Of a DNA stretch of 64,000 nt, positions 6,781-57,682 are shown one piece after another; within the stretch, counting starts at the first letter, position 1; every line of letters begins with the position of its first letter. The DNA is from Candidatus Limnocylindria bacterium (lineage in GTDB: Bacteria > Chloroflexota > Limnocylindria > P2-11E). Both the position numbers and the translations under genes were made by a program. Under the pieces are notes generated by a model that ran no database searches, was not told the DNA's origin, and saw nothing but the letters and a program-made list of their open reading frames with translations. The stretch is taken from the NCBI GenBank assembly GCA_038227105.1, contig JBBRQB010000002.1:7983-71982 (forward strand). Reading direction: 5' to 3'.

Positions 6781-6781
6781 G

Positions 6782-8965
6782 ATGTGCGCAAGTATCGGCG
6801 CGCCGCAATACCCTTGCGCCGCGGGAGGGTGCTTGGATATCTGGCAGATCCTGCGCGACCGGCTCGACTACGCGTCGTTCGTCCCGACCCCGCTTCCCGA
6901 CGTGGAACGCGCCGATCTCCGGCGTCGCGACGGCTCGCCCTATTCGGTGCTGAAGAACCAGCGTGGGGACAAGGGCGCGGGCCGGTATCTGCGGCTCGAT
7001 GTGGCCGATGTCCAGCTCTACGAGCTGATGGATGGACAGCGTTCGATCCAGGACATCCTCATGGCGCACGTCGAGCGCAACGGCGTCTTCGCGCTGGATC
7101 GCCTGGCGCGCCTCACGGCGCAGCTCAGGGCGAACGGCTTCTTCGGCGAGGAGCCGCCGATGCTGTACGAGAAGCTGTTCGCGCGGCGCGCGATGCGCGA
7201 TCCCATCGCGCGCGCGTCGACCTTCCTCAAGCGGCTCGTCGTGTGGGACATCGCCCGGTGGTCGAACGCCGACCGCCTCGTGGACGCGGTGTACCGGCTC
7301 GGTGGCCGGCTCGCGTTCACGCGCGTCGGTGCCGTCGCGCTCGTAGCCTTCGGTCTGTACGGGCTCTGGACCTGGTTCGGTGAGGTGCGCTCACCGCGCC
7401 ATCAGCTCGCGACGATCGACGGCTCCTACGTACTGGGCATCCTCGCGCTCGTCCTCCTGCAGGTGGCGTCGATCTCGGTGCATGAGGCCGGTCACGCCCT
7501 CGCGATCCGGCACTTCGGGAGGCGCGTCCGACGCTTCGGCGTCGCGATGTATTACCTCTTCCCGTGCTTTTACGTCGACTCGACGGACATGGTCCTCGGC
7601 ACACGCGCGCAGCGGATCGTCGTGTCCCTCGCCGGGCCGTTCGCGGGCCTGACCGTCGCGTCCGCTTGCGCGCTCGTGGCGGCGGGGCAACCCGACACGC
7701 TCACCGGAAGCCTCATGTTCAAGGCCGCGAGCCTGTTCGTCTTCCAGTTCATCTTCAATCTCCTGCCGATCCTGGAGCTCGACGGCTACCACGTGCTCAC
7801 CGACGCGCTCGACGCGCCGTTCCTGCGCCAGCGGGCGCTCGGGTTCGTGCGCGGCGCGGCATTCGTGAAGCTGCGTCGTCGCGCCACATGGTCACGTGAG
7901 GAGGTCGGCCTCGCGATCTTCGGCATCACCGCGATCGTCACGTCCCTCGCGACGCTGGTGCTGTCGATCCAGCTCTGGCGTTCACGCATCGGTGTCGCAT
8001 CTCAAGAGCTCCTCGCCATCGGACCGGCGGGGATCCTCGCGCTCGCGCTGCTGGTCCTCGTCTTCGTCGGCCCGCTCGCGGTCGCGGTCATCGCGCGGGT
8101 GACCGGCACCGTGCGCACGACCGTCAACCTCGCACGCTCCCGCAGCCGCGCTGTGACCCAGCGCGAGCAGCAGGAGCGCGTCGCGATGCTCGCTCGCGTG
8201 CGATTCCTCGCGGGACTGCCAGGCCCGGCGCTCGTTGCGCTCGCGTCGCAGCTGGACATCGAGCACGCCGATGCCGGACGGACCGTGATCACCGCGGGCA
8301 GCACCGGCGACCGCTTCTACCTCGTGCGATCGGGCTCGCTGCAGGCCGTGGCCGTCGACGGCACGGTGCTCGGGACGATCTCGGCCGGAGAGGGCTTCGG
8401 CGAGCTCGCGCTGCTCGACGGAACGCCGCGGACCGCGACGGTCCAGGCCCTCGAGGACTGCGAGCTGTGGTCGCTCGACCGGCCGCACTTCCAGCGGTGG
8501 ATCCGTGACCGGTACGAGATCGCCGCGCGCATCCGCGCCGACATCGGCGCTCGGACCGCCCTCGCGGCCCTGCCGTTCTTCCGCGATCTGGAGGGCCGCG
8601 AGCTCGACGCCACTGCCGCGCGCCTGCAGGCCCGGCGGTACGAAGACGGTGACGTCGTGATCCAGGCGGGAGAAAGTGGCGGCGGCTATTACCTGATCCG
8701 CGAGGGCACGGCCGACGTGGCCCTCCCGGACGGCCGGCACGTGCGCACCCTCGGCCCCGGCGACGGCTTCGGGGAGCTCGCGCTCATCTTCGGGACGCCG
8801 CGCACGGCGACGGTCACGGCGAAGGGCCCACTGGTCGTCGGAGTGCTCGGACGGTCTGATTTCGCGGCGCTTGTAACTGCGTCAGGCGAAACGATGGGTG
8901 AATTCCGCCGCAGGACGGGCCATTATGTCGGGGCTGGCCTTGGCGGGGCCGTTGGGGGAGCGTAG
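6782..8965 (+). CDS. M50/site-2-type intramembrane metalloprotease with N-terminal PqqD/RRE-like domain and two C-terminal cyclic-nucleotide-binding domains
   Basis: ORF track frame 6533..8965. [13 protein letters not shown] (HExxH) in a hydrophobic segment plus [12 protein letters not shown] (M50 NxxPxxxxDG motif). N-terminal [53 protein letters not shown] resembles PqqD/RRE. Two cNMP-binding units ([10 protein letters not shown]...[21 protein letters not shown] and [10 protein letters not shown]...[21 protein letters not shown]). Start uncertain: ATG 6782, TTG 6833 (after GGGAGGG) or ATG 7028. Confidence 0.8.
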
Positions 8966-9303: not shown

Positions 9304-10278
9304 ATGGCTAGCAAGAACCTTGGCGCGGTGATCCAGCGGGCGATCAGCGACGGGGCGTTCCGTCGCCAGCTTCAGGCCGACCCGGCCGCGGCGCTCCGCG
9401 GCTTCAACCTGACACCCGACGAGATCGCGGCGGTCCGGAGCGGCGACTCGAGCCGGCTCATGTCGCTCGGTGTCGACTCGCGGATGAGCAAAGCATTCAC
9501 CGTCGGCGGCGCGGCACTCGAGAACCCGTCGCGCGCCGCGCTGAGCGACGTCTCGGGCAACACCTCGAGCGCGCTCACGGGCGACAACACCTCGGGTGCT
9601 CGCGAGGGCCTCGCCAGCGACCAGACCACCGGTGCGCGCGCCGCATCGAGCGACGGTCAGAACTCCGGCGCTCCGGCCTCAGGAGCTCGCGCCACGATCA
9701 GCGACGGCCAGACCAGCGGCTCGGTGCACGAGGGTGCGCGGGCCAGCGTCTCGGCCCCACAGGGCGACGCGTACCGCGCCGTCAACGACCCGGACAGCAG
9801 CGGTGGCTCGCGCGCCGCGATCGGCGACCCGACGGCCGCCGGCACGCACTCGAGCATCACCGCCCCACAGGGCGACGCGTATCGCGCCGTCAACGACCCG
9901 GACAGCACCGCTGGCTCGCGCGCCGCGATCGCCGACCCGACGGCCGCCGGCACGCACTCGAGCATCACCGCCCCGCAGGGCGACGCGTACCGCGCGGTCA
10001 ACGACCCGGACAACACCAGCGGGACGCGCGAGTCGGTCTCGGCACCGCAGGGCGACGCGTACCGCCCGATCCACGACCCAGACAACGACTCGGTCGCAAG
10101 CCGGATGCAGGACACGAACACCGCCCTGCCGGGCAGCGACGTGCAGCACGACCCCGGCTTCGTCGACAGCCACAGCGCGTTCGTTCCAAGCGACTCGGCC
10201 GACGCGCAGCGCGAGCTGCTCGACGCCCAGCACCACGGCGACGCCCTTGGCGACACCGGCCACGGCATCAACTCCTAG
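9304..10278 (+). CDS. Repeat protein with N-terminal nitrile-hydratase/Nif11-like leader-type domain and 36-aa tandem repeats
   Basis: ATG 9304 preceded by AAGGAG (9290-9295). The longer ORF-track start at 9004 gives Arg-rich junk and is rejected. N-terminus MASKNLGAVIQRAISDGAFRRQLQADPAAALRGFNLTPDEIAAV matches the NHLP/Nif11 leader helix pattern. Then a Ser/Gly/Ala/Asp-rich region and repeats APQGDAYRAVNDPDSxGSRAAIxDPTAAGTHSSIT. Confidence 0.7.
   Translation: MASKNLGAVIQRAISDGAFRRQLQADPAAALRGFNLTPDEIAAVRSGDSSRLMSLGVDSRMSKAFTVGGAALENPSRAALSDVSGNTSSALTGDNTSGAREGLASDQTTGARAASSDGQNSGAPASGARATISDGQTSGSVHEGARASVSAPQGDAYRAVNDPDSSGGSRAAIGDPTAAGTHSSITAPQGDAYRAVNDPDSTAGSRAAIADPTAAGTHSSITAPQGDAYRAVNDPDNTSGTRESVSAPQGDAYRPIHDPDNDSVASRMQDTNTALPGSDVQHDPGFVDSHSAFVPSDSADAQRELLDAQHHGDALGDTGHGINS
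9754..10089 (+). repeat. Tandem in-frame 108-bp (36-aa) repeats, 2 full + 2 partial copies, inside the 9304..10278 CDS
   Basis: DNA unit gccccacagggcgacgcgtaccgcgccgtcaacgacccggacagc... recurs at 9754, 9862, 9970 and 10042 (the last two truncated). Confidence 0.85.
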
Positions 10279-10341: not shown

Positions 10342-11013
10342 CTAGTAGCGGATGTCGCCCTGCAGGACGGCGCGGTCCTTCAGGGCGAGGTTGCGGCGGC
10401 CGATCTTGATCGCGCCGCGCTTCTCGAGGTCGGCGAGGACGCGGTTCACCGACACGCGGGTCGCTCCGACGAAGCCGGCGAGATCCTCCTGGGTCATGTC
10501 GATCTGATCCGTGCCCGAGGCTTCCGCGAGATCCAGCAGGCACTTCGCGACCCTCCCCGGGAGGTCCAGGAACACGAGGTCTTCCACGTGGCCGGTGCTC
10601 CGGCGGACGGTCTTCACCAGGAGCGCCAGCATCCGGCGCATCGCGTCAGGGTTCCGCTCGAGCGTCCCGATGAATTCCTGCCGCGCGAGTGCCAGCGTGT
10701 GGGTCTCGGTGATCGCCGTCACCGTGGCGGATCGCGGGCCGTCGTCGAACAGCGCGAGCTCGCCGAAGACGTCACCGCCGCGCTCGAGCGCGACCACGAC
10801 CTCGCGGCCCTGCTCGTCCGGCACGCTGACCTTCACGGTGCCCGAGGTGATCAGGAAGACCTGCCCGGCCGGGTCGTCGTTGTGGAAGATGACCTCGTCC
10901 CGTGCGAAGTGCCGCGGGCGCATCTTGCCGGCCAAGGCCAGCCGGTCCGCTGGGCTGAGACAGGCGAAGAGCGGGCTTTCACCCAGGTAGTCGGCGACCG
11001 CAGCGGTATCCAC
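10342..11013 (-). CDS. CRP/FNR family transcriptional regulator (cNMP-binding + HTH)
   Basis: ORF track 223 aa: FHNDDPAGQVFLITSGTVKV...GDVFGELALFDDGPRSATVTAITE (cNMP-binding) and C-terminal EDLAGFVGATRVSVNRVLADLEKRG (HTH). GTG start. Confidence 0.9.
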   Translation of the reverse strand: MDTAAVADYLGESPLFACLSPADRLALAGKMRPRHFARDEVIFHNDDPAGQVFLITSGTVKVSVPDEQGREVVVALERGGDVFGELALFDDGPRSATVTAITETHTLALARQEFIGTLERNPDAMRRMLALLVKTVRRSTGHVEDLVFLDLPGRVAKCLLDLAEASGTDQIDMTQEDLAGFVGATRVSVNRVLADLEKRGAIKIGRRNLALKDRAVLQGDIRY

Positions 11014-11343: not shown

Positions 11344-12282
11344 TCACCGCTGGCCAGCGAGCTCCAGGAACCGCGGCTTCACCTCGGTCATCGTCCGTTC
11401 GATCGTCTCGCGGTCGTAGGGCGGGGACATCCCGAACAGGAAGCCTTTCACGCCGATCCGGTGGTACTCGACGAGCTTCTTCGCGATCTCGTCCGGTGAC
11501 CCCAGGACCGCCGGCCGGTTCGGCGCCTCGACCTTGTTCCGCGTCGCGACCTCGCGCATGCGCTTGTCGACGTCGTTGAGGTCGTCGCGGACAAGGATGC
11601 CGCCGCCGCCGGTCGGGGCGATCTCGTTGTAGTCGCGGCCCACGTCCGCGCAGTGCTTCTTCAGCACCTCGAGTTTGTGCTTGATCACATCGGGTGTGCC
11701 GAAGCCGTGCCACCAGTCGGCGTAGCGCGCGGTGATCTTCAGCGTTACCTGCTCGCCGCCACCGCCGATGAGGATCGGCAGGCGCTTCTGGACCGGGCGG
11801 GTACCCAGCGTCGCGTCCTCGAGCTGGTAGTACTTGCCGTGGTACGTCATCGTGCCCTCGTCGAGCAGGACGCGGTTGATGCGTGTCGCCTCACGTAGCT
11901 TCGCGAGCCGGATCGCGGGCGTGTCGAAGTCGATCCCATACATCTTGTGCTCGTGCTCGTTCCAGGCCGCGCCGATGCCGAGCACCGCGCGGCCGTGGCT
12001 GATGTTGTCGAGGGTCGATGCCATGTTCGCGAGCACGGCGGGGTAGCGATACGTGTTTCCACTGACGAGCATCCCGATGAGCGGCTTCGTGGTGATCGCC
12101 GCGAGTGCGGGCAGGATCTGCCAGCCCTCGAGGTTCGGCCCCGTGATGTCGCCCATCAGCGGCACGAAGTGGTCCCAGGTCATGAGGACGTCCCACCCGG
12201 CCTGCTCGGCGAGGAGCGCGGCGTCGCGCATCTCGTCCCAGGTCGTGTACTGCGGATGGAGCTGAAGACCGAAGAACGTCAT
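11344..12282 (-). CDS. LLM-class F420-dependent oxidoreductase (luciferase-like monooxygenase family)
   Basis: ORF track 312 aa: MTFFGLQLHPQYTTWDE...DVLMTWDHFVPL...ILIGGGGE are typical LLM motifs. Confidence 0.85.
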   Translation of the reverse strand: MTFFGLQLHPQYTTWDEMRDAALLAEQAGWDVLMTWDHFVPLMGDITGPNLEGWQILPALAAITTKPLIGMLVSGNTYRYPAVLANMASTLDNISHGRAVLGIGAAWNEHEHKMYGIDFDTPAIRLAKLREATRINRVLLDEGTMTYHGKYYQLEDATLGTRPVQKRLPILIGGGGEQVTLKITARYADWWHGFGTPDVIKHKLEVLKKHCADVGRDYNEIAPTGGGGILVRDDLNDVDKRMREVATRNKVEAPNRPAVLGSPDEIAKKLVEYHRIGVKGFLFGMSPPYDRETIERTMTEVKPRFLELAGQR

Positions 12283-12302
12283 GAGCTGCCTCCGAGCGTA
12301 TA

Positions 12303-13658
12303 GTGCGGACTCCGATGGCGCTCACGAAGGATCGCACCGACGTCGCCCAGGTCCTCGCCGACACGAAAAAGCACGTCCTCGTCAACTGGTCGGCGCAGGG
12401 AAATAGTTCGCCGCTCGTCATCACCGGGGCCGAGGGCGTGTGGCTCCACTCGGGTGACCGCCGGATCCTCGATTTCAGCTCCGAGCTGGTGAACTCCAAC
12501 CTCGGGCACGGCCATCCACGTGTGGTCCGCGCGATCCAGGAGCAGGCGGCGATCCTCAACTACGTCACGCCGGCGTTCACGACCGAGGCGCAAGCGACCC
12601 TCGCGCGCATGCTCGCGGACGTGACGCCCGGCGACCTGACCCGGACGATCTTCACGACGGGCGGCACCGAGGCCAACGAGAACGCCATCAAGCTCGCTCG
12701 CCTCGCGACCGGCCGGCACAAGATCCTCACCCAGTGGCGCAGCTTCCATGGCCAGACGCAGGGCGCGATGACGCTCGGCGGCGACAACCGTCGTTGGGCC
12801 AATGAGCCCGGCATCACCGGCGTGGTCCATTTCCTGAATCCCGATCCCTACCGCTCGCTCTTCGGCGACGACGCGCAGAAGGCGCTCGCGCACGTCGAGG
12901 AGGTCATCTGGTACGAGGGTCCGCAGTACATCGCGGCGATCCTGGTGGAGCCGATCGTCGGCACATCTGGCCTGCTCGTGCCGCCGGATGGATTCCTTCA
13001 GGGCCTGCGGACCCTATGCGACAAGCACGGCATCCTCCTCGTGTTCGACGAGGTCATGACCGGGTTCGGCCGGACCGGGAAGTGGTTCGCCGCGGAGCAC
13101 TGGAACGTGGCGCCGGACATCATGACCTTCGCGAAGGGCGTGACCTCGGGCTACGTCCCGCTCGGCGGCGCGATCGTGAACGAGCGCGTCGCGAAGCACT
13201 TCGACCAGAACGTCTACTGGGGCGGGTTGACCTACAGCGGTCACGCCCTCGCGTGCGCCGCCGGCATCGCGACGCTTGAGACGTACGAGAGCGAGGGATT
13301 GATCGGGAACTCCGACAAGATGGGCGACCTCCTCGGCCGCGAGCTCAAGGCGCTCGCCCAGAAGCATCCGTCGATCGGCGACGTCCGCGGGCGCGGACTC
13401 TTCTGGGGTATCGAGCTCGTGAAGGACCGCGGCACCAAGGAGATGCTCGAGCAGTGGAACGGTCCCTCGAGCGCGCTCGCGAACGCGCTCAAGGCCGCGC
13501 TGTTCAAGCGCGACGTGTATGTCTTCTGCCGCTGGAACATGCTGTTCGTCGCGCCTCCGCTCATCGTGACCGAAGACGAGCTGCGCATCGGCATCCGCGC
13601 CATCGATGAAGCGCTCGAGATCGCCGACCGCTACGCCAGCACGGGGAAGCTCGAATAG
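12303..13658 (+). CDS. Class III (omega-) aminotransferase, PLP-dependent
   Basis: ORF track 451 aa: SELVNSNLGHGHPRVVRAIQEQ...LVFDEVMTGFGRTGKWFA...TFAKGVTSGYVPLG (class III signature; the GFGRTG region). Confidence 0.85.
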   Translation: MRTPMALTKDRTDVAQVLADTKKHVLVNWSAQGNSSPLVITGAEGVWLHSGDRRILDFSSELVNSNLGHGHPRVVRAIQEQAAILNYVTPAFTTEAQATLARMLADVTPGDLTRTIFTTGGTEANENAIKLARLATGRHKILTQWRSFHGQTQGAMTLGGDNRRWANEPGITGVVHFLNPDPYRSLFGDDAQKALAHVEEVIWYEGPQYIAAILVEPIVGTSGLLVPPDGFLQGLRTLCDKHGILLVFDEVMTGFGRTGKWFAAEHWNVAPDIMTFAKGVTSGYVPLGGAIVNERVAKHFDQNVYWGGLTYSGHALACAAGIATLETYESEGLIGNSDKMGDLLGRELKALAQKHPSIGDVRGRGLFWGIELVKDRGTKEMLEQWNGPSSALANALKAALFKRDVYVFCRWNMLFVAPPLIVTEDELRIGIRAIDEALEIADRYASTGKLE

Positions 13659-13744
13659 CCGCCAGCGCCTCGCGGGTCCACTGGGGCATCAACCTGCCGG
13701 CACAGCACACCACCTGGCCCGAGCTCCGGGACACCGCGCTCCTC

Positions 13745-14611
13745 GTGGACCGCCTCGGCTTCGACTCGCTCTTCACCTGGGACCACTTCGTGCCGCTCGA
13801 CGGCGATCCGAAGGGACCGATGTTCGAGGCCTGGGAGCTGCTGGCAGCGTGGGCGGCGGTGACGAAGACGGTGCGCCTGGGGACGCTCGTCACCGGAAAC
13901 ACGTACCGGCACCCGCCCGTGCTCGCGAAAATGGCGGCGACGTTGGATCACGTGTCCGAGGGCCGCGCGATCCTCGGCCTCGGCGCCGCATGGCACGAGG
14001 CCGAGCACGCGATGTACGGCATCCCGTTCCCGAGCACGGGTGGCCGCCTCGCGCGGATGGACGAGGCTGCGCGCGTGCTCCGAATGCTGCTCGATGACCG
14101 CTCCTCCTCCTTTGAGGGCAAGCACTACCGGTTGAAGGACGCGGTCGCCGAGCCGAAGCCGGTGCAGAAGCGCCTGCCGATCCTCATCGGCGGTGGCGGC
14201 GAGCAGAAGACCCTACGGACCGTCGCGCGCTATGCCGACTACTGGCACGGCCACGGTGACCCCGCGGTGATCCGGCACAAGCTCGACGTGCTCGCGGCGC
14301 ACTGCGCCGAGATCGGGCGCGACGTCGCGGAGATCACGCCGCTCACGACGGTCCGGCCGGACCTGATCCTGCGTGACCGGAGGGCCGACGTCGAGGCGCA
14401 GCTCGAGCGCGTCCGGGTCCGCTCCCGCGCCACGGAGCCGCTCGCGATGAATGAGATCCACACGGTCGACGCGCTCGTGGAACGCTGCGCCGCGCTTTGG
14501 GCCGCAGGAGCACGCGGCTTCATCCTGTACGTCAAGGCGCCGTTCGACCACGAGACGATCGAGCGCATCGCGAACGAGGCCCGGCCGCGGCTCGAGGAGG
14601 TGATCGCATGA
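13745..14611 (+). CDS. LLM-class F420-dependent oxidoreductase (second paralog); N-terminus probably extends upstream
   Basis: ORF track 288 aa from GTG 13745. In-frame upstream translation (~13673..13744) RVHWGINLPAQHTTWPELRDTALLVDRL aligns with the N-terminus of the first LLM (MTFFGLQLHPQYTTWDEMRDAALLAEQ) but holds no ATG/GTG/TTG. Confidence 0.8.
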   Translation: MDRLGFDSLFTWDHFVPLDGDPKGPMFEAWELLAAWAAVTKTVRLGTLVTGNTYRHPPVLAKMAATLDHVSEGRAILGLGAAWHEAEHAMYGIPFPSTGGRLARMDEAARVLRMLLDDRSSSFEGKHYRLKDAVAEPKPVQKRLPILIGGGGEQKTLRTVARYADYWHGHGDPAVIRHKLDVLAAHCAEIGRDVAEITPLTTVRPDLILRDRRADVEAQLERVRVRSRATEPLAMNEIHTVDALVERCAALWAAGARGFILYVKAPFDHETIERIANEARPRLEEVIA

Positions 14612-15825
14612 CGACCGCCGTTCGCGCGACCACGCTCATCGACGGAACGGGCGCGGACCCGTCGCGCGGACGGTTCATCGTCATCGAGGATGGCGTGATC
14701 ACCAGGGTCGCCTCGGACGCGCCGAAGGGCGCCGAGATCATCGACACGGGTGATCTGACGATCCTTCCCGGGCTCATCGACTGCCACGTCCATCTCGCCG
14801 TAAGCCAGTGGAACCTGGAGCAGCGCCTATCGACCCCGAACAGTCTGAACGTCGCCATGGCTCTGGTGAACTCGCGCACGACCCTCGAGGCAGGCTTCAC
14901 GACGGTTCGCGACGCGGGCTTCACGACGCGCGGTGTGAAGATGGCCGTCGACCGCGGGATCTTTCCGGGGCCCCGCATGCGCATCGCGGTCGCGCCTCTC
15001 TCGCAGACGGGCGGTCATGGTGACTCGGTGATGCCATCCGGGGTGAACACCTGGCCCGCTGATCCCGAGAGGCCCTACGGCGTCGTCGACGGCGTGGACA
15101 GCGCGCGGCGCGTGACCCGCGAAATGCTGCGCGCCGGCGCGGACCAGATCAAGGTCATGACCTCAGGTGGGGTCATGTCCCCGAACGACGAGCCGACGGC
15201 GACCGGGTTCTCGCCCGAGGAGATCGCGGCCATCGTGTACGAGGCGCACGCCGCGGGCAAGACGGTGATGTCGCATGCGCAAGCGACCCAGGGCATCAAG
15301 AACGCCGTGTTCGCGGGCATCGAGTCGATCGAGCACGGCATCTACCTCGACGAGGAGGCGTGCGCGGAAATGAAGAGACGCGGCACGTACCTCGTGGCCA
15401 CGCTCATCGCGCCCATGTGGGTGCTTCGCCGCGCGGAGAAGGATCCGTCAGCGGTGCCGCCGTATGCGGTGCGAAAGTCCAAGGAGGTCATCGATGCCCA
15501 TCGGCAGTCGTTCCGGATGGCCGTCGAGTCCGGCGTCAAGATCGCTATGGGCACCGACACTGGTGTGGGGCCGCACGGCACGAACGCCGAGGAGCTCGCG
15601 GTCATGGTCGAGAACGGGATGACCCCGATGCAGGCGATCGTGGCCACGACGAAGACCGCCGCGGAGTGTGCGCGCGTCGACACGCTCGTCGGCACCATCG
15701 CGGCCGGCAAGCGCGCCGACATCATCGGCGTACGCGGCGATCCGCTCGCGAACATCGGCCTGTTCAAGGACCCGGCGTCCGTCGCGTTCGTGATGAAGGA
15801 CGGCGCTATTCACAAGCGGCCGTGA
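14608..15825 (+). CDS. Metal-dependent amidohydrolase family protein
   Basis: ATG 14608 overlaps the LLM stop (ATGA) and follows GAGGAGG. MTTAVRATTLIDGTGADPSRGRFIVIEDGVITRV...LPGLIDCHVHL...AHAAGKTVMSHA...ESIEHG (amidohydrolase HxH/His/Asp motifs). Confidence 0.8.
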   Translation: MTTAVRATTLIDGTGADPSRGRFIVIEDGVITRVASDAPKGAEIIDTGDLTILPGLIDCHVHLAVSQWNLEQRLSTPNSLNVAMALVNSRTTLEAGFTTVRDAGFTTRGVKMAVDRGIFPGPRMRIAVAPLSQTGGHGDSVMPSGVNTWPADPERPYGVVDGVDSARRVTREMLRAGADQIKVMTSGGVMSPNDEPTATGFSPEEIAAIVYEAHAAGKTVMSHAQATQGIKNAVFAGIESIEHGIYLDEEACAEMKRRGTYLVATLIAPMWVLRRAEKDPSAVPPYAVRKSKEVIDAHRQSFRMAVESGVKIAMGTDTGVGPHGTNAEELAVMVENGMTPMQAIVATTKTAAECARVDTLVGTIAAGKRADIIGVRGDPLANIGLFKDPASVAFVMKDGAIHKRP

Positions 15826-16844
15826 AGAAGTGGGAGCCGCCCGCCGGCTGGAAGCGGGTCACGACGCTCGAGACGCACGCGGCGGGCGAGCCGCTGCGCA
15901 TCGTCACCGGTGGCCTCGATCCGATCCCGGGAAAGACGATCCTCGAGAAGCGCCGCTACGCGCGCGAGCATCTCGACGGGCTGCGCCGGTCGATCGTGTT
16001 CGAGCCGCGCGGCCATGCAGACATGTACGGCGCGATCCTCACCGAGCCCGTCACGCCCGACGGCGATCTTGGTGTGCTGTTCATGCACAACGAGGGCTGG
16101 AGCACGATGTGCGGTCACGGCATCATCGCGCTCACCACGGCGCTCCTGGAGACGGGTGAGCGCGCGGGCGATGTCATCCGCTACGACGCACCGCCCGGCC
16201 GCGTGACCGCGACGGCCGTCCGAGACGGCGACCGGGTCCGTGAGGTCGCGTTCGAGAATGTGCCCTCGTTCGCCGCCGCGCTGGATGAGACAGTGCGGGT
16301 GGAGGGCATCGGTGAGGTCCGGTACGACCTCGCCTTCGGTGGCGCCTTCTACGCCTTCGTCGACGCCGACGCGCTCGGCGTGCCGCTCGACGCGAGCGGC
16401 TTCCGCCACTGCATCGAGGTGGGGATGCGGATCAAGCGTGCGGTGATGGCGAACCGCGAGGTGCGGCACCCCGAGGCACCTGACTCCGCCGACCTCTCCT
16501 TCCTCTACGGGACGATCCTCACCGGCCGGGCGCACGAGCCGGGCGCCGACTCACGGAACGTGTGCGTGTTCGCCGAGGGCGAGGTGGACCGCTCGCCGAC
16601 GGGCACCGGCGTGAGCGCCCGCGTCGCCATCGAGCACGCCCGCGGAAGGCTGCGCGACGGTGCGACGTTCACCGTGGAGAGCATCATCGGGACCCGCTTC
16701 CGCGGTCGCGTGCTGCGGGAGGCGAAGGTCGGGCCACACGCCGCGGTCGTCTCGGAGGTCGCGGGCTCGGCGTGGGTCGTCGGGCGCTCGGAGCTCTGGA
16801 TCGCGCCGAACGATCCGCTTCGCGAAGGGTTCGTCCTTCGCTAG
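15822..16844 (+). CDS. Proline-racemase-family enzyme with Cys/Thr catalytic pair (trans-3-hydroxy-L-proline dehydratase type)
   Basis: GTG 15822 overlaps the amidohydrolase TGA. GHADMYGAIL, MHNEGWSTMCGHG (first catalytic Cys) and DRSPTGTGVSAR (Thr where racemases/epimerases have the second Cys). Confidence 0.75.
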   Translation: MKKWEPPAGWKRVTTLETHAAGEPLRIVTGGLDPIPGKTILEKRRYAREHLDGLRRSIVFEPRGHADMYGAILTEPVTPDGDLGVLFMHNEGWSTMCGHGIIALTTALLETGERAGDVIRYDAPPGRVTATAVRDGDRVREVAFENVPSFAAALDETVRVEGIGEVRYDLAFGGAFYAFVDADALGVPLDASGFRHCIEVGMRIKRAVMANREVRHPEAPDSADLSFLYGTILTGRAHEPGADSRNVCVFAEGEVDRSPTGTGVSARVAIEHARGRLRDGATFTVESIIGTRFRGRVLREAKVGPHAAVVSEVAGSAWVVGRSELWIAPNDPLREGFVLR

Positions 16845-17347
16845 ACGGGGATCAGGTGCCCGCTCTCCAAGAAGTAGGCCCAGCCGTCCATGTCGGGCGG
16901 CGCGATCCCGAGCTGAGTCAGGATGGCTGCGATCTGCGCGCGATGCTCGGTGCCGTGGTTGACCGCCTGCAGCATGAAGAGCGCTACGGGGATCCACCAG
17001 GTGCCCGGCGGGTCATTGCCGGTCACCTGGACCCTCCGATCCTGGTCGCCGCGCATCGCGGATCGCTCGAGCTCCGCGTTGCCGCGGTCGAGCCGCGCTG
17101 CGAGGGCCTCGAAGCCAGGGAACGGATCCTCCGGAAGACGCTCGGGCCGTTCCGTGTCCAGGAGCCGCGCCGTGTAGCTCACCTGGCCGTTCGCGAGATG
17201 GACGAGGGTGCGGCCGATGCTTCCGTACGTACCGGTCGCCGTCGCCCCCAGCTGCTCGGGCGTGAGCGTCCGGCAGGCCTCGAGCAGCCGCTGATTCATC
17301 ATCGTGTTGTGCTTGAAGAACTCGACCAGCAGCTCCGGGGTGTTCAC
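16841..17347 (-). CDS. DinB/YfiT-like (DinB_2) family protein, possibly mycothiol-dependent
   Basis: ORF track 168 aa: LLVEFFKHNTMMNQRLLEACRTLTPEQL...GSIGRTLVHLANGQ...HGTEHRAQI fits a DinB-like four-helix pattern. Confidence 0.6.
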   Translation of the reverse strand: MNTPELLVEFFKHNTMMNQRLLEACRTLTPEQLGATATGTYGSIGRTLVHLANGQVSYTARLLDTERPERLPEDPFPGFEALAARLDRGNAELERSAMRGDQDRRVQVTGNDPPGTWWIPVALFMLQAVNHGTEHRAQIAAILTQLGIAPPDMDGWAYFLESGHLIPV

Positions 17348-18363
17348 CCTGTCCCCCCCGCGAGCGCCGTGAGCCCCTTGAGCTTGGGGATGATGTCCTT
17401 CCCGTAGGCCTCGAGCTGTTCCTCCTCATCGCCGCTCATCAGGTAGAGGTTGAACTGCGTCATGCCGGCCTCCGCGAGCGCGTGGAGCTTCTCGATCTGC
17501 TCGCTCACGTCGCCCGTCACGCAGAAGCGATCCACCGACTCGTCGTCCACAAAGCCGGCGTTCGACGATCCGGACTCGGCGTGGTGCTTGTAGTCGTAGC
17601 CCGGCCGGTCGCGCACGTAGCGCGTGAGGTCCGCCGGCAGCCCCTGCTCGCCGTACCGGCGGACGAGGTCCACCACGTGGTTGCTCACGAGGGCGGGGAA
17701 CCAACGGACCCGCTCGCGGACGTCACTCTTCCGCCCGATATGCGCGGGCGCCGCGACCATCACCTGCACATCCTGCGGATCGCGCGTGGCCGCGCGCGCA
17801 CCGTCGCGGAGCAGCCCCACGCACCACCCGACCAGGCTCGGGTCGGCGAGCTGGATCACGGCGCCGTCGGCGATGCGGCCGGTGACCGCGAGCGCCTTCG
17901 GGCCGTACCCCGCGATCCACACCGGCAGGTCGTAGGGCTCGGCCCAATCGAACACGAGATCGGTGCCGTCGTACGTCACCGTGCGGCCCTCACAGAGATC
18001 GCGGATCGCGACGGTCGCCGCCTCGAGATCGTCGAGCGTGGTCGGCTTCTTCCCGAGGACGCGGCGCGCCGAATCGCCGCGGCCGATGCCGAGGTCCATG
18101 CGGCCCTTCGAGAGGATCTGGAGCACCGCGAGCGCGCTCGCGGTGACCGAGGGCTCGCGGGTCGCGGGGTTCGTGACGCAGGTCCCGAGCCGGAGCTTCG
18201 TGCTGTTCTGCGCCATCAGCGTCAGCAGCACGTACGGCTCCTTCCAGAGGACGTGGCTGTCGAAGACCCAGCCGTGCGTGAAGCCCGCGTGCTCGGCGAG
18301 CTTCGTCAGCGAGACGACGCGCTCGAGCGAGTGGTCCGGCTTGAGCGTGAACCCGAAGTCCAT
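17344..18363 (-). CDS. LLM-class F420-dependent oxidoreductase (third paralog, Mer/FGD-like)
   Basis: ORF track 339 aa: MDFGFTLKPDHSLERVVSLTKLAEHAGFTHGWVFDSHVLW...IAGYGPKAL...CVTGDVSEQIEKL. Confidence 0.8.
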   Translation of the reverse strand: MDFGFTLKPDHSLERVVSLTKLAEHAGFTHGWVFDSHVLWKEPYVLLTLMAQNSTKLRLGTCVTNPATREPSVTASALAVLQILSKGRMDLGIGRGDSARRVLGKKPTTLDDLEAATVAIRDLCEGRTVTYDGTDLVFDWAEPYDLPVWIAGYGPKALAVTGRIADGAVIQLADPSLVGWCVGLLRDGARAATRDPQDVQVMVAAPAHIGRKSDVRERVRWFPALVSNHVVDLVRRYGEQGLPADLTRYVRDRPGYDYKHHAESGSSNAGFVDDESVDRFCVTGDVSEQIEKLHALAEAGMTQFNLYLMSGDEEEQLEAYGKDIIPKLKGLTALAGGTG

Positions 18364-18375
18364 GAGGCGCTGAGT

Positions 18376-18807
18376 TTAGGGAGAGTCGTCCCCGGCGGGC
18401 GGGTCAGCTGCGCTCCACGCCACCGTCCGCTCCGCCGTGACCTTGACGACGAGGTTGTCGAACAACGGGAGGTCGTCGTACTGCGGGTACTTGGCCGTCA
18501 GCAGGATGAGCGCCTCATCGCGCTCCTGCCCGTCCGCGAGGAGCTCGGCGGGTCCCTCGACCAGCACGTACGCGAGCTGCCGCCAATCCTCGCTCCAGCG
18601 ATCGACGACGAACGCCGCGCGCCCGGTGTCGATGACGTTGCGCACGCGACGAAGCAGCGTCGTGCGCTTGGGCTTCGAGTCGATCGCCGAATACAGCACC
18701 GGCGGCACCCACGCGAAGCACACCGGGACCACATGCGGTCGGCCATCGCCGCTCGCGGTCGCCAGATGGCCGACGCGCGCCGTCGCGAGCAGATCGTTGT
18801 CGCGCAT
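18376..18807 (-). CDS. PPOX-class (pyridoxamine 5'-phosphate oxidase-like) F420-dependent enzyme
   Basis: ORF track 143 aa: ARVGHLATASGDGRPHVVPVCFAW...AAFVVDRWSEDWRQLAYVLVEG (split-barrel FMN/F420-binding pattern). Confidence 0.7.
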   Translation of the reverse strand: MRDNDLLATARVGHLATASGDGRPHVVPVCFAWVPPVLYSAIDSKPKRTTLLRRVRNVIDTGRAAFVVDRWSEDWRQLAYVLVEGPAELLADGQERDEALILLTAKYPQYDDLPLFDNLVVKVTAERTVAWSAADPPAGDDSP

Positions 18808-18836
18808 CGCGCCACGCTATCAGCGACACTTCGGAC

Positions 18837-19592
18837 ATGCCCAACGTCACGCTCATCCCCATCGATGGACTTCCCGAGATCAAGCCGGGCGATGATCTCG
18901 TCGCGATGCTGCTTGCCGCGCTGAAGGCATCGGGTGGATCGCTCCAGCAGGGCGACGTGCTCGCGCTCGCACAGAAGGTCGTGTCGAAAGCCGAGGGCCG
19001 GATCCGCAAGCTCGCCGACGTCGTCGCCGGCCCGGAGGCCGAACGTATGGCCGCGGAGTCGGGCAAAGACGCCAAGAGCCTTCAGGTAGTGCTGGACGAG
19101 ACCGCGCGGATCGTCCGCTGGCAGCGTGGCGTTCTCATCGTCGAAACGAAGCACGGCTTCGTCTGTGCGAACGCGGGCGTGGATCACTCGAACGCCGGCG
19201 CGCCGGACACGTTGATCCTTCTGCCGGTGGATCCCGATGGATCGGCCAGGCGCATCCGGGAGCGGATCAAGGGCGAGGCGGGGGTCGACGTGCCGGTCAT
19301 CATCACCGACACGTTCGGGCGGGCCTGGCGCGAAGGTCACGTGAACGTCGCGATCGGCATCAGCGGCCTGCCCGCCCTGCGCCGCTACATCGGCGAGTTC
19401 GACCCCGACGGCTACGAGATGCGCGTGACCGAGATCGCCATCGCGGACGAGATCGCGGCCGCGACCGAGCTCGTGATGGGGAAGCTCGACCGCCGGCCCG
19501 CTGCCATCGTGCGCGGTCTGCCGCTGCCCGCCGACGGCAGCGAGACCGCACATACGTACGTGCGACCGCACGACCGGGACATGTTCCGCTAG
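18837..19592 (+). CDS. cofE: Coenzyme F420-0:L-glutamate ligase
   Basis: ORF track 251 aa: VLALAQKVVSKAEGR...GFVCANAGVDHSNAGAPDTLILLP...ITDTFGRAWREG are CofE/FbiB N-domain motifs. Confidence 0.8.
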   Translation: MPNVTLIPIDGLPEIKPGDDLVAMLLAALKASGGSLQQGDVLALAQKVVSKAEGRIRKLADVVAGPEAERMAAESGKDAKSLQVVLDETARIVRWQRGVLIVETKHGFVCANAGVDHSNAGAPDTLILLPVDPDGSARRIRERIKGEAGVDVPVIITDTFGRAWREGHVNVAIGISGLPALRRYIGEFDPDGYEMRVTEIAIADEIAAATELVMGKLDRRPAAIVRGLPLPADGSETAHTYVRPHDRDMFR

Positions 19593-56728: not shown

Positions 56729-57475
56729 TTACCTCATGGTCGCACGGGCGGCCCGGAGCGCGTCGTGGGCCTCGCGCTCGTGTCCGAGCACCACGTCGAG
56801 CGCCTTCGCGATGCCGCGCCGGTGGCCCGGGTCGATGAAGCGCATCGCGACCGACGGATCGAATGGCTTCGTGCCGAGCTTGTCGAGGGCCTCCACCACA
56901 TAGCCGTACGACTCCGCCGCGCGCAGCAGGTCGCCGCCCGGCGTCGAGAAGAGTGACCGGAGACCTCGGAGGAAGCGACCCGCGGCGCGGCGCTTGTCGG
57001 CGAGCACGATGCGCATCGCGTGGTCCGCGAACGCCGCCGTCCCCGCGTGCTTCGCGTCCGCCCAGCGTGCGTCGTCACGGATGGCTGCGGCCCAACCGGT
57101 CAGCGCGGAGTCCGACGCGGCCGCGCGTCCGAGGCCGGCGTCGAGCCCGGCTTTCGCGACGGTCGGTCGATCGGGCTCGCTCCGCTCTCGGTCCAGGAAC
57201 ATCGGCCCGCCGTGTTCGGCGTCCACGAAGTCCGGCCAGCCGATCTCGCTTGGCTTGTCGCCCTTGTCGAAGAACGTCCGCACGAGGAACCGGTCCGGGT
57301 CGCTGTAGCCGACGATGAGCCCGAACTCAGGTGGCCCCACCGCGCCTCGGATGAGCGGCGGCAGCTTGCCGTCGATGGCCTCGCGGATCCGCGCGCCAAC
57401 GAGCTCGCGCATGTCGTCGTCGTATGGAGGCGGGACGTCGTCGAGCCGCACGCCTGCGGCATGTGCCGCGAGCAC
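56729..57475 (-). CDS. Hypothetical protein (possibly BtrH_N/DUF4872-like); N-terminus likely extends upstream
   Basis: ORF track 248 aa from GTG 57475. The same frame stays open for ~200 bp upstream to the pmbA TAG and encodes a plausible peptide ...RFGEGHECSFPAALSVATKTEYDWLLGCSGAAFDVTIDLAGFDPL. Confidence 0.5.
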   Translation of the reverse strand: MLAAHAAGVRLDDVPPPYDDDMRELVGARIREAIDGKLPPLIRGAVGPPEFGLIVGYSDPDRFLVRTFFDKGDKPSEIGWPDFVDAEHGGPMFLDRERSEPDRPTVAKAGLDAGLGRAAASDSALTGWAAAIRDDARWADAKHAGTAAFADHAMRIVLADKRRAAGRFLRGLRSLFSTPGGDLLRAAESYGYVVEALDKLGTKPFDPSVAMRFIDPGHRRGIAKALDVVLGHEREAHDALRAARATMR

Positions 57476-57682
57476 CCGCGTCTCGGGATCGCGTGGGGTC
57501 GCCGCGAGCGGATCGAAGCCCGCAAGGTCGATGGTGACGTCGAACGCGGCGCCCGAGCAGCCCAGCAGCCAGTCGTACTCCGTCTTCGTCGCGACCGAGA
57601 GCGCCGCGGGAAAGCTGCACTCGTGACCCTCGCCGAAGCGGAGCGGTCCGATGTCGCGCAGCAGCTTGGTCAGGGCACCGGC

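What the first reader, a model, noticed from the sequence alone, without database searches (positions are those of the whole stretch)
11344..19592. F420-centred enzyme cluster with a Cys/Thr proline-racemase-family dehydratase
Three LLM-class F420-dependent oxidoreductases, a PPOX-class F420 enzyme and cofE lie within 8 kb. They are interleaved and translationally coupled (ATGA and GTGA overlaps) with a class III aminotransferase, an amidohydrolase, a proline-racemase-family enzyme and a DinB-like protein. The racemase-family enzyme has catalytic Cys in MCGHG but Thr in DRSPTGTG, which in characterised members means trans-3-hydroxy-L-proline dehydratase rather than racemase or epimerase. The combination suggests an F420H2-dependent route acting on a cyclic imino or amino acid (hydroxyproline, pipecolate or ectoine-like), or a tailoring set for a peptide natural product.
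Basis: partly seen in the sequence, partly recalled or inferred. Interest (0 to 1): 0.5.

Follow-up and report, generated by a model that had tools for sequence, protein, structure and literature searches.

The report
F420 cluster with hydroxyproline dehydratase

Summary
All nine genes, their families, the ATGA/GTGA overlaps and the Cys/Thr catalytic pair are real. The racemase-family protein is a typical trans-3-hydroxy-L-proline (T3LHyp) dehydratase, 55.5% identical to the characterised Thermococcus litoralis enzyme (PDB 6R76).

The host is a 'Candidatus Limnocylindria' (Chloroflexota) lineage. The cluster is composite.
- **Backbone:** LLM1 divergent from the aminotransferase, then LLM3-PPOX and cofE. 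It is flanked by a Crp regulator, an NHLP-type repeat protein and an M50 protease, and is conserved across the class without the dehydratase.
- **Additions:** LLM2 (a paralogue of LLM1), the amidohydrolase and the dehydratase were added stepwise downstream of the aminotransferase. They are fixed as one coupled operon only in the window's clade.

In sister clades the orthologous dehydratase sits beside an OCD/mu-crystallin-type pyrroline-2-carboxylate reductase. In this clade none is nearby.

Best reading (confidence about 0.4, inferred): peptide and hydroxyproline salvage in which LLM2 reduces the cyclic imine with F420H2. The main rival is that the co-location is only an accretion next to cofE.

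Unexpected extra: LLM2 has no canonical start codon in 26 of 28 junctions. An ATA, GTA or CTG codon overlaps the aminotransferase stop codon in the usual -4 geometry, and databases mostly annotate the gene as truncated.

The parts
11344..12282 (-). LLM1: luciferase-like, F420-dependent oxidoreductase of the TIGR03560 (Rv1855c) family. It is divergent from the aminotransferase and belongs to the class-wide backbone.
   Evidence: Pfam PF00296, 154 bits. TIGR03560, 232.0 bits against a cutoff of 231.4. The divergent LLM1/aminotransferase pair is present in every related locus, including those that lack LLM2, the amidohydrolase and the dehydratase.
12303..13658 (+). Class III (omega-type) PLP aminotransferase and first gene of the + operon. 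The likely true start is ATG 12315, because the homologues are 447 aa.
   Evidence: PF00202, 320 bits. NF004718, 579 bits against 472. The closest solved structure is taurine:2-oxoglutarate aminotransferase 6JIX, 364 bits.
13655..14611 (+). LLM2: paralogue of LLM1 (49.5% identity), TIGR03560 family, and the candidate F420H2-dependent cyclic-imine (Pyr2C) reductase. The conserved domain starts at His 13679. No ATG, GTG or TTG lies before GTG 13745. ATA 13655-13657 overlaps the aminotransferase stop TAG 13656-13658.
   Evidence: The AlphaFold model (pLDDT 90.5) places strand beta1 and helix alpha1 upstream of codon 13745. The fold is an F420/FMN TIM barrel with TM about 0.8 to Mer, Fgd and Adf.
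14608..15825 (+). Amidohydrolase-superfamily peptidase of the Xaa-Pro dipeptidase / Xaa-Arg carboxypeptidase group. It is coupled to LLM2 through an ATGA overlap.
   Evidence: PF01979, 182 bits. The best NCBIfam model is NF051886 (Xaa-Pro dipeptidase), 344 bits, below its cutoff of 500. Closest solved structures: 3MTW (Cc2672 Arg carboxypeptidase, 241 bits), then the Xaa-Pro dipeptidases and prolidases 3MKV, 2QS8 and 3FEQ. The overlap is shown.
15822..16844 (+). [quoted passage not shown] It is coupled to the amidohydrolase through a GTGA overlap.
   Evidence: PF05544, 346 bits. The best NCBIfam model is T3LHyp dehydratase NF045511, 353 bits, below its cutoff of 540. 405 bits and 55.5% identity to the characterised 6R76 enzyme. 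Both motifs are present in 41 of 42 aligned sequences (the 6R76 reference plus 40 of the 41 homologues).
16841..17347 (-). DinB-family protein, an accessory gene. Among relatives it is present only in the window's own contigs and in L013.
   Evidence: PF05163, 66 bits. Presence and absence are shown.
17344..18363 (-). LLM3: F420-dependent LLM of the TIGR03842 (CPS_4043) family, part of the backbone. Function unknown.
   Evidence: 416 bits against a cutoff of 295. Conserved next to PPOX and cofE at 75-90% identity across the class.
18376..18807 (-). PPOX-class F420-dependent oxidoreductase of the TIGR03668 (Rv0121) family, part of the backbone.
   Evidence: 137 bits against a cutoff of 119. Synteny is shown.
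18837..19592 (+). cofE (F420-0:gamma-glutamyl ligase), a stand-alone 251-aa form.
   Evidence: TIGR01916, 281 bits against 181. PF01996, 243 bits.
10342..11013 (-). Crp/Fnr-family regulator, a conserved neighbour of LLM1 and a possible regulator of the cluster.
   Evidence: PF00027, PF13545 and PF00325. Adjacent to LLM1 in the window clade and in L102 and L111-L129.
9304..10278 (+). Protein with an NHLP-clan (Os1348 family) leader-like domain followed by a hypervariable tail of short repeats. It is a conserved neighbour whose link to the cluster is unproven.
   Evidence: NF038399, 64 bits against a cutoff of 40. PF14407, 34 bits, below its cutoff of 48. The repeats and their variation are shown and the synteny.
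6533..8965 (+). M50-like intramembrane metalloprotease with two cNMP-binding domains, a conserved neighbour. The true start is probably downstream of 6533, because the ORF overlaps the kinase gene on the opposite strand.
   Evidence: PF02163 and PF00027. NF041824 (daptide-type HExxH protease), 129 bits, below its cutoff of 300. Synteny is shown.

Best explanation
**Shown**
- The region is a real, conserved gene cluster of an uncultured soil 'Ca. Limnocylindria' (Chloroflexota) lineage.
- It has two layers. The older layer is class-wide: LLM1 divergent from a class III aminotransferase, LLM3-PPOX, and cofE.
- The younger layer sits downstream of the aminotransferase. There LLM2, an amidohydrolase-type peptidase and a typical T3LHyp dehydratase were added stepwise.
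- In the window's clade these additions form a four-gene operon (aminotransferase, LLM2, amidohydrolase, dehydratase) joined by -4 nt overlaps.

**Inferred mechanism**
1. The operon salvages peptide-derived imino acids.
2. The amidohydrolase releases the C-terminal residue (proline or 3-hydroxyproline) from short peptides.
3. The dehydratase converts trans-3-hydroxy-L-proline to delta1-pyrroline-2-carboxylate (Pyr2C).
4. LLM2, or less likely LLM1, reduces this cyclic imine to L-proline with F420H2.
5. LLM2 would thereby take the place of the NAD(P)H-dependent OCD/mu-crystallin-type reductase (LhpI) that accompanies the orthologous dehydratase elsewhere.

**Least certain step:** the aminotransferase's role. 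It probably feeds or drains the same pool. One possibility is that it makes cyclic imines from omega-amino compounds, which the same reductase would then handle.
For: **Dehydratase identity**
- 405 bits and 55.5% identity to the biochemically characterised T. litoralis enzyme (PMC4141209, PMC9309405).
- Cys97 and Thr260 occupy the catalytic columns. Only five clade-specific substitutions separate it from OCD-linked orthologues.

**Operon**
- ATGA and GTGA overlaps are present.
- In L004/L005, where the amidohydrolase is missing, LLM2 overlaps the dehydratase directly.

**Conservation**
- The order aminotransferase, LLM2, amidohydrolase, dehydratase is kept in 10 complete GTDB species-representative loci.
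- It is also kept in five or more complete metagenome contigs.
- Every partial locus is consistent with it.

**Displacement pattern**

| Dehydratase identity to the window | Loci with an OCD/mu-crystallin homologue nearby |
|---|---|
| 66-72% | 10 of 24 |
| 51-62% | 12 of 45 |
| Window clade | none within 10 kb |
| The 64-kb window itself | none |

**Peptide theme**
- In other lineages the slot after aminotransferase-LLM2 holds an M13 peptidase, an S51 peptidase or the same amidohydrolase.

**Chemical precedent**
- LLM-fold F420H2-dependent reductases (Apd6/LmbY) reduce the endocyclic imine of 4-alkyl-pyrroline-2-carboxylates (PMC8498797, PMC8518648).

**F420 dependence**
- LLM1 and LLM2 score above the TIGR03560 cutoff, cofE is adjacent, and the LLM2 model is an F420/FMN TIM barrel.
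Against: - The aminotransferase-LLM2 pair existed before the dehydratase arrived (L089, L102, L104). LLM2's original substrate is therefore something else.
- No member of TIGR03560 has a known substrate.
- The fold search cannot tell imine reduction from carbonyl reduction or alcohol oxidation.
- I could not align LLM2 with Apd6/LmbY sequences.
- An LhpI-type or other Pyr2C reductase may lie elsewhere in these genomes. Only 10-kb flanks and one 64-kb window were inspected.
- Most OCD-less dehydratase loci in other clades also lack any obvious reductase nearby, so absence is weak evidence.
- The amidohydrolase's closest solved relative is an Xaa-Arg/Lys carboxypeptidase, not a prolidase.
- The proposal gives the aminotransferase no necessary role.
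Confidence: 0.4

Rival explanations
1. The cluster is a mosaic. The neighbourhood of cofE in Limnocylindria collects F420 enzymes and unrelated cargo genes. The dehydratase and amidohydrolase run an ordinary NAD(P)H-linked hydroxyproline or peptide salvage, with an unlinked reductase. The aminotransferase and LLM1/LLM2 do something else in amino-acid or amine metabolism, for example amine to aldehyde to alcohol, as in taurine:2-oxoglutarate aminotransferase paired with an aldehyde reductase.
For: - The backbone is conserved without LLM2, the amidohydrolase or the dehydratase.
- The slot carries different cargo in different lineages: M13, S51, MmgE/PrpD, a DNA methylase, DinB.
- Extra LLM or PPOX genes come and go next to cofE.
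- The aminotransferase's nearest characterised relative is a taurine aminotransferase.
Against: - Tight -4 nt coupling of LLM2 to the amidohydrolase and dehydratase, and of LLM2 directly to the dehydratase in L004, is kept across many species.
- The cargo is repeatedly a peptidase rather than random genes.
- The OCD partner found in sister clades is missing here.
Confidence: 0.3
2. The aminotransferase, not an LLM, acts on the dehydratase product. Pyr2C opens to 2-oxo-5-aminopentanoate. The aminotransferase either removes the 5-amino group, giving 2,5-dioxopentanoate on the way to 2-oxoglutarate, or aminates the 2-oxo group, giving ornithine. LLM2 would then handle the resulting aldehyde or a related redox step.
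For: - The aminotransferase leads the operon and is omega-type.
- An aldehyde dehydrogenase and a CN-hydrolase recur near aminotransferase/LLM1 in some lineages.
- F420 LLMs include alcohol and sugar dehydrogenases.
Against: - No aldehyde dehydrogenase lies in the window's operon.
- The ring-opened form of Pyr2C is a minor species (general chemistry, not tested here).
- No F420-dependent aldehyde dehydrogenase of this fold is known.
- The aminotransferase predates the dehydratase in this position.
Confidence: 0.12
3. The whole conserved block, from the M50/cNMP protease and the NHLP-type repeat protein through the aminotransferase and LLMs to cofE, is a ribosomal-peptide (RiPP-like) pathway. 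The aminotransferase and F420 enzymes would tailor the peptide, loosely as in daptides. The dehydratase and amidohydrolase would recycle or process peptide-derived residues.
For: - The leader-like domain passes the NF038399 cutoff.
- The tail consists of short, lineage-specific repeats, like a multi-core precursor.
- The protease's best model is the daptide HExxH protease.
- The order M50, NHLP protein, Crp, LLM1, aminotransferase is conserved down to 50-65% protein identity.
- F420-dependent reductases are used in antibiotic and natural-product biosynthesis.
Against: - The aminotransferase scores 248 bits on the daptide aminotransferase model (cutoff 450), far below its 579 bits on NF004718.
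- The protease is below its cutoff.
- No class-defining RiPP enzyme is present.
- The LLM1/aminotransferase pair also occurs without Crp, M50 or the NHLP protein (L089-L091).
- A T3LHyp dehydratase acts on the free amino acid.
Confidence: 0.08

Closest known systems
Two-enzyme T3LHyp pathway: LhpH dehydratase plus LhpI Pyr2C reductase (Azospirillum brasilense, Thermococcus litoralis; human L3HYPDH)
   Same: The dehydratase is an orthologue: Cys/Thr pair and 55.5% identity to TlLhpH. In sister clades its orthologues sit beside an OCD/mu-crystallin (LhpI-type) gene, as in the described pathway.
   Different: No LhpI-type gene is nearby here. The dehydratase is instead embedded in an operon with an F420-type LLM, a class III aminotransferase and an amidohydrolase, next to cofE.
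Apd6/LmbY-type F420H2-dependent reductases (LLM fold) of 4-alkyl-L-proline biosynthesis
   Same: They share the fold class and cofactor. Their reaction, reduction of the endocyclic C=N of a pyrroline-2-carboxylate, is the one proposed for LLM2.
   Different: Those enzymes are actinobacterial and sit in antibiotic gene clusters. The sequence relationship to LLM2 was not tested. LLM2 belongs to the uncharacterised TIGR03560 family and lies in a catabolic-looking context.
Amidohydrolase-superfamily peptidases Cc2672 (Xaa-Arg/Lys carboxypeptidase) and Sgx9260b/c and 2QS8 (Xaa-Pro dipeptidases)
   Same: 205-241 bits to these structures over the full length. The HxH, Lys, His, His and Asp metal-site motifs are visible in the sequence (read by eye).
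   Different: The score is below the NCBIfam equivalog cutoff (344 against 500). The C-terminal residue preference (Pro/Hyp or Arg/Lys) cannot be called.
Taurine:2-oxoglutarate aminotransferase (Toa, PDB 6JIX) and the NF004718 family
   Same: Toa is the best solved relative (364 bits). The protein is above the NF004718 cutoff, and JGI labels close homologues as Toa.
   Different: No taurine or sulfonate genes are nearby, and the substrate is unknown.
Translational coupling by -4 nt start/stop overlap (NTGA)
   Same: The aminotransferase/LLM2 junction keeps exactly the -4 geometry, and the two downstream junctions are canonical ATGA and GTGA (PMC12548453).
   Different: At this junction the overlapping codon is ATA (24 cases), GTA (2) or CTG (1), not ATG, GTG or TTG.

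Membership tests
[quoted passage not shown] | Proline-racemase fold over the full length | tested here: met
   PF05544, 346 bits, residues 16-338 matched to profile positions 2-325 of 325.
[quoted passage not shown] | Cys at the first catalytic position and Thr (not Cys) at the second | tested here: met
   MCGHG (Cys97) and DRSPTGTG (Thr260) align with the same residues of 6R76 and 7QPO. Proline racemase 7PB3 has DRSPCGTG. The classification rule is given in PMC4141209.
[quoted passage not shown] | Closer to characterised dehydratases than to racemases or epimerases | tested here: met
   405 bits to TlLhpH (6R76) and 283 bits to human L3HYPDH. By comparison, 243 and 226 bits to proline racemases and 146 bits to the PA1268 epimerase. 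The best NCBIfam model is the dehydratase.
[quoted passage not shown] | Reaches the curated equivalog score of the NCBIfam dehydratase models | tested here: inconclusive
   NF045511: 353.5 bits against a cutoff of 540. NF047722: 231 against 550. The cutoffs are strict and built on other taxa, and no other family scores higher.
[quoted passage not shown] | Dehydratase activity on T3LHyp | not testable with these tools
   Needs an enzyme assay.
Canonical LhpH-LhpI T3LHyp gene pair | OCD/mu-crystallin-type (or other NAD(P)H) Pyr2C reductase gene adjacent to the dehydratase | tested here: not met
   No OCD homologue lies within 10 kb in any window-clade locus or in the 64-kb window. One is present in 10 of 24 loci at 66-72% identity and 12 of 45 loci at 51-62% identity.
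F420-dependent LLM oxidoreductase, TIGR03560 (Rv1855c) family (LLM1, LLM2) | Score above the curated family cutoff | tested here: met
   LLM1: 232.0 bits against 231.4, which is marginal. LLM2: 255.3 bits even for the truncated form.
F420-dependent LLM oxidoreductase, TIGR03560 (Rv1855c) family (LLM1, LLM2) | Complete TIM barrel and an F420-producing host | tested here: met
   The AlphaFold model has pLDDT 90.5 and TM about 0.8 to Mer, Fgd and Adf. cofE is adjacent. The barrel is complete only if the region upstream of GTG 13745 is translated.
F420-dependent LLM oxidoreductase, TIGR03560 (Rv1855c) family (LLM1, LLM2) | Binds F420 rather than FMN | not testable with these tools
   The structural neighbours include both F420 and FMN enzymes.
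Apd6/LmbY-type F420H2-dependent imine reductases | Sequence membership in the LmbY clade | not tested
Only the reaction analogy comes from the literature.
Daptide-type or other RiPP gene cluster | Precursor, protease and tailoring aminotransferase all reach their family cutoffs | tested here: not met
   The leader-like domain passes NF038399 (64 bits against 40). The protease scores 129 against 300 and the aminotransferase 248 against 450.
cofE (F420-0:gamma-glutamyl ligase) | Score above the equivalog cutoff | tested here: met
   TIGR01916, 280.6 bits against 180.65.

The most novel reading that the evidence does not exclude
In this Chloroflexota clade an F420H2-dependent luciferase-like enzyme (LLM2) has displaced the NAD(P)H-dependent LhpI-type reductase. 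That would make the first F420-linked hydroxyproline-to-proline route and give a first substrate class (small cyclic imino acids) to the large, uncharacterised TIGR03560/Rv1855c family. In addition, LLM2 would be translated only by termination-reinitiation at a non-canonical AUA/GUA/CUG codon overlapping the upstream stop codon.
Probability: 0.3. Interest if true: 0.65.

Novelty: new variant of a known kind. Interest (0 to 1): 0.45.

Why it matters
**If LLM2 reduces Pyr2C with F420H2**
- It would add primary amino-acid catabolism to the known roles of F420 outside methanogens and actinobacteria.
- It would give a first function to the TIGR03560/Rv1855c family, which also has members in Mycobacterium tuberculosis.
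- It would supply a natural F420-dependent imine reductase for small cyclic imino acids, of interest for biocatalysis.

**Independently of that**
- The conserved start-less LLM2 shows that standard gene callers systematically truncate or miss a real gene. 104 of the 120 database orthologues listed are annotated short.
- It offers a clean natural test case for reinitiation at near-cognate codons.

**What stays ordinary**
- The dehydratase itself is ordinary.
- The F420 link remains an inference from gene order.

Tried and rejected
**-1 ribosomal frameshift fusing the aminotransferase to LLM2.** Rejected as the general mechanism.
- No slippery heptamer is conserved in the last codons. G_GGA_AAG occurs only in L018 and L094.
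- The -1 frame is open for only 9-15 codons upstream of the stop in L094, the window and L003.

**Stop-codon readthrough at the aminotransferase/LLM2 junction.** Rejected, because LLM2 is in a different frame.

**LLM2 as a pseudogene or a protein truncated at GTG 13745.** Rejected.
- The upstream 23 codons carry invariant residues encoded by several different codons.
- They match Pfam profile positions 11-32.
- They form strand beta1 and helix alpha1 of the barrel.

**Changed substrate for the dehydratase in this clade.** Not supported. Only five clade-specific substitutions were found and the motifs are intact.

**Regulatory RNAs, sigma-70 promoters and intrinsic terminators in 6-22 kb.** None were found.

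**Literature.**
- Nothing links F420 with pyrroline-2-carboxylate.
- Nothing gives a function for Rv1855c.
- Nothing covers F420 in Limnocylindria.
- The primary paper on the Toa structure is not in the library, so the aminotransferase's substrate-binding residues were not compared.

**Fold search with the LLM2 model.** It gave only generic LLM neighbours and no clue to the substrate.

**Whole-genome presence or absence of LhpI-type reductases.** This could not be tested, because only loci, not whole MAGs, were accessible.

Full report
**1. What is in the sequence**

The window has about 70% G+C, so I chose coding frames by third-position GC. Nine genes fill 11344-19592.

| Gene | Coordinates | Family evidence |
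|---|---|---|
| LLM1 | 11344-12282 (-) | TIGR03560, 232 bits against 231.4 |
| Class III aminotransferase | 12303-13658 (+) | NF004718, 579 bits against 472 |
| LLM2 | annotated 13745-14611 (+) | TIGR03560, 255 bits |
| Amidohydrolase | 14608-15825 (+) | PF01979, 182 bits |
| Proline-racemase family | 15822-16844 (+) | PF05544, 346 bits |
| DinB | 16841-17347 (-) | PF05163, 66 bits |
| LLM3 | 17344-18363 (-) | TIGR03842, 416 bits against 295 |
| PPOX | 18376-18807 (-) | TIGR03668, 137 bits against 119 |
| cofE (251 aa, stand-alone) | 18837-19592 (+) | TIGR01916, 281 bits against 181 |

ATGA lies at 14608, behind a GGAGG. GTGA lies at 15822 and again at the LLM3/DinB junction. The convergent dehydratase and DinB stop codons share the bases CTAG.

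No other LLM or PPOX paralogue occurs in the remaining 56 kb of the window.

**2. The racemase-family enzyme**

Its best solved relative is 6R76 (405 bits, 55.5% identity over 335 columns). 6R76 is the biochemically characterised T. litoralis T3LHyp dehydratase (PMC4141209, PMC9309405). Human L3HYPDH (7QPO) follows at 283 bits. True proline racemases score 226-243 bits and the PA1268 epimerase 146 bits.

Cys97 (MCGHG) and Thr260 (DRSPTGTG) occupy the two catalytic columns. The racemase 7PB3 has Cys in the second column.

- Both motifs are present in 41 of 42 aligned sequences (the 6R76 reference plus 40 of the 41 homologues).
- Only five positions distinguish the window's clade from orthologues that sit beside a classical reductase.
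- The NCBIfam equivalog cutoffs are not reached (353 against 540). I treat that as a matter of strict, taxon-specific models, not as evidence against the assignment.

I conclude that this is a typical T3LHyp dehydratase.

**3. Organism and conservation**

The exact protein occurs on two metagenome contigs with the same neighbours. Close homologues come from 'Candidatus Limnocylindria' and other Chloroflexota MAGs.

I collected 80 loci around dehydratase homologues from species-representative genomes. I collected 80 more around LLM2 homologues from metagenomes, plus eleven from exact-protein look-ups. I searched all of them with the window's proteins by tblastn.

Every locus whose dehydratase is at least 79% identical, and which has enough flank, keeps this order:
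- Crp, LLM1 (-)
- aminotransferase, LLM2, amidohydrolase, dehydratase (+)
- LLM3, PPOX (-)
- cofE (+)

That covers 10 complete species-representative loci, at least 5 complete metagenome contigs, and partial loci that are all consistent. DinB is present only in the window and in L013. In L004/L005 the amidohydrolase is absent and LLM2 overlaps the dehydratase directly.

**4. The cluster is layered**

Aminotransferase homologues of 71-78% identity lie in the same backbone without LLM2, the amidohydrolase or the dehydratase. That backbone is Crp, LLM1, aminotransferase, LLM3, PPOX, sometimes another LLM, then cofE (L090, L111-L129).

Intermediate states also exist:
- Aminotransferase-LLM2 only: L089, L102, L104.
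- Aminotransferase-LLM2-amidohydrolase: L100, L101, L106.

LLM2 is a 49.5% paralogue of LLM1. The genes were therefore added stepwise into one slot.

In other lineages the slot after LLM2 holds different cargo:
- An M13 peptidase on the same strand, starting 5 nt after the LLM2 stop (L103, L105).
- An S51 peptidase (L102, L104).
- An MmgE/PrpD protein (L110, L113).

The repeated recruitment of peptidases points to a role for aminotransferase-LLM2 in peptide or amino-acid metabolism.

**5. Displacement pattern**

Dehydratase orthologues at 66-72% identity, from other Limnocylindria, never have the aminotransferase or LLMs nearby.

- 10 of these 24 loci have an OCD/mu-crystallin homologue about 1 kb upstream.
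- At 51-62% identity, in other phyla, 12 of 45 loci have one, often directly adjacent.

This is the known LhpH-LhpI pairing. No OCD homologue lies within 10 kb in the window clade or anywhere in the 64-kb window.

**6. Mechanism proposed**

Shown:
- The dehydratase identity.
- The coupled operon.
- Its conservation.
- The F420-family membership of the LLMs, next to cofE.

Inferred:
1. The amidohydrolase frees a C-terminal (hydroxy)proline.
2. The dehydratase makes Pyr2C.
3. LLM2 reduces Pyr2C with F420H2.

The amidohydrolase's nearest structures are Cc2672 and several Xaa-Pro dipeptidases.

The reaction has a precedent. LLM-fold Apd6/LmbY enzymes reduce the endocyclic imine of 4-alkyl-pyrroline-2-carboxylates with F420H2.

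Weak points:
- Aminotransferase-LLM2 predates the dehydratase.
- The TIGR03560 family has no characterised member.
- The LLM2 model resembles Mer, Fgd, Adf and SsuD about equally.
- A reductase may be encoded elsewhere in the genome.
- The aminotransferase, whose nearest structure is taurine:2-oxoglutarate aminotransferase, has no required role.

I give this reading 0.4. The mosaic reading gets 0.3, a route in which the aminotransferase acts on ring-opened Pyr2C gets 0.12, and a RiPP reading gets 0.08.

**7. An unexpected feature: LLM2 has no ordinary start codon**

The conserved N-terminus (H-[WF]-G-[IV]-N-L-P-A-Q-H-T-T-W) is homologous to the N-terminus of LLM1. It lies upstream of the first ATG, GTG or TTG (GTG 13745).

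*The N-terminus is real.*
- It matches Pfam profile positions 11-32.
- It forms strand beta1 and helix alpha1 in a confident model (pLDDT 90.5).
- Its invariant residues are encoded by several different codons.

*Findings across 28 distinct aminotransferase/LLM2 junctions.*
- 26 lack a canonical start near this N-terminus.
- 15 have none anywhere in the open frame.
- The LLM2 frame is always -1 relative to the aminotransferase stop, across nine spacer lengths (12-54 nt) of unconserved sequence.
- The codon overlapping the stop in the usual -4 geometry is ATA (24 cases, as ATAG), GTA (2) or CTG (1, as CTGA).

*The A is selected.*
- The last aminotransferase codon ends in A in all 24 ATA cases, through four different codons (GAA, GCA, GGA, TCA).
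- Only 2.7% of third positions in that gene are A.

*Database annotation.*
- Public databases annotate 104 of the 120 closest orthologues as 262-295 aa truncations.
- The 16 full-length ones have a canonical start 0-8 codons before H[WF]G.

The best explanation is termination-reinitiation at a near-cognate codon. The -4 NTGA geometry is the commonest coupling motif (PMC12548453), but here the start is not NTG. Frameshifting and readthrough were considered and rejected, as set out in the section on what was tried.

**8. Neighbours outside the finding**

Upstream of Crp lie two further genes:
- A 324-aa protein with an NHLP-clan leader-like domain (NF038399, above its cutoff) and a tail of short, lineage-specific repeats.
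- An M50-type protease with two cNMP-binding domains. Its best model is the daptide HExxH protease, below cutoff.

This pair is syntenic with the backbone down to 50-65% protein identity. However, it is absent from L089-L091, where LLM1 and the aminotransferase still occur together. This keeps a peptide-natural-product reading alive at low probability.

**9. Verdict**

The cluster is real and conserved, but it is composite.

The F420-hydroxyproline link is an attractive hypothesis supported only by gene order. If true, it would be a new variant of the known T3LHyp pathway. Interest is moderate.

Noticed in passing
window 13655-13745 (aminotransferase/LLM2 junction); also L003, L004/5, L009-L019, L038, L089, L092-L106, L109: LLM2 lacks a canonical start codon in 26 of 28 distinct junctions. 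An ATA (24), GTA (2) or CTG (1) codon overlaps the aminotransferase stop in the -4 geometry. The frame relation holds across nine spacer lengths. This probably reflects reinitiation at a near-cognate codon.
   Followed up: yes
public protein databases: 104 of the 120 closest LLM2 orthologues are annotated as N-terminally truncated proteins (262-295 aa). In L003 the gene was not called at all. This is a systematic annotation error caused by the missing start codon.
   Followed up: partly
window 9304-10278 (+) and 6533-8965 (+): An NHLP-clan (Os1348 family) leader-like domain is fused to a hypervariable tail of short repeats. The window has four copies of APQGDAYRAVNDPD, and other lineages have VRAGDDWKF or IHDDPDGFLAANADA. 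Next to it lies an M50-type protease with two cNMP-binding domains. The pair is conserved with the F420 backbone and looks like a multi-core ribosomal peptide precursor with its protease.
   Followed up: partly
L103 7956-9929, L105 1412-2545, L102 8010-8897, L104 3813-4583, L113 2192-3622: In other Limnocylindria lineages the slot downstream of aminotransferase-LLM2 carries an M13 peptidase, an S51 peptidase or an MmgE/PrpD protein instead of the amidohydrolase and dehydratase.
   Followed up: yes
window 56729-57682 (-), downstream of the TldD/PmbA gene 57683-59257: A second gene may lack a canonical start. About 69 codons of coding-like sequence (GC3 0.88) follow, in frame, directly after the TAG of the upstream TldD/PmbA-family gene and before the first GTG. 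This could be a near-cognate start or stop-codon readthrough. The product has no Pfam match.
   Followed up: partly
window 12282-12315: LLM1 and the aminotransferase are divergent, with only 20-32 nt between their start codons. That leaves almost no room for two promoters and leaders, so the transcripts may be leaderless or the promoters may lie inside the coding regions. The scan found no sigma-70-like promoter.
   Followed up: no
window 1342-6780 (-): An 1812-aa sensor histidine kinase with nine GAF domains. Its 5' end overlaps the annotated start of the M50 protease ORF by about 250 nt, so the protease start at 6533 is probably too far upstream.
   Followed up: no
L004/L005 800-6700, L089 88-7070, L091 12462-14773: In lineages without Crp, M50 and the NHLP protein, LLM1/aminotransferase is flanked by some or all of a family-5 peptide-binding protein, a CN-hydrolase, an aldehyde dehydrogenase, a GNAT and a 470-aa amidohydrolase. 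This is another hint of amide or peptide catabolism.
   Followed up: no
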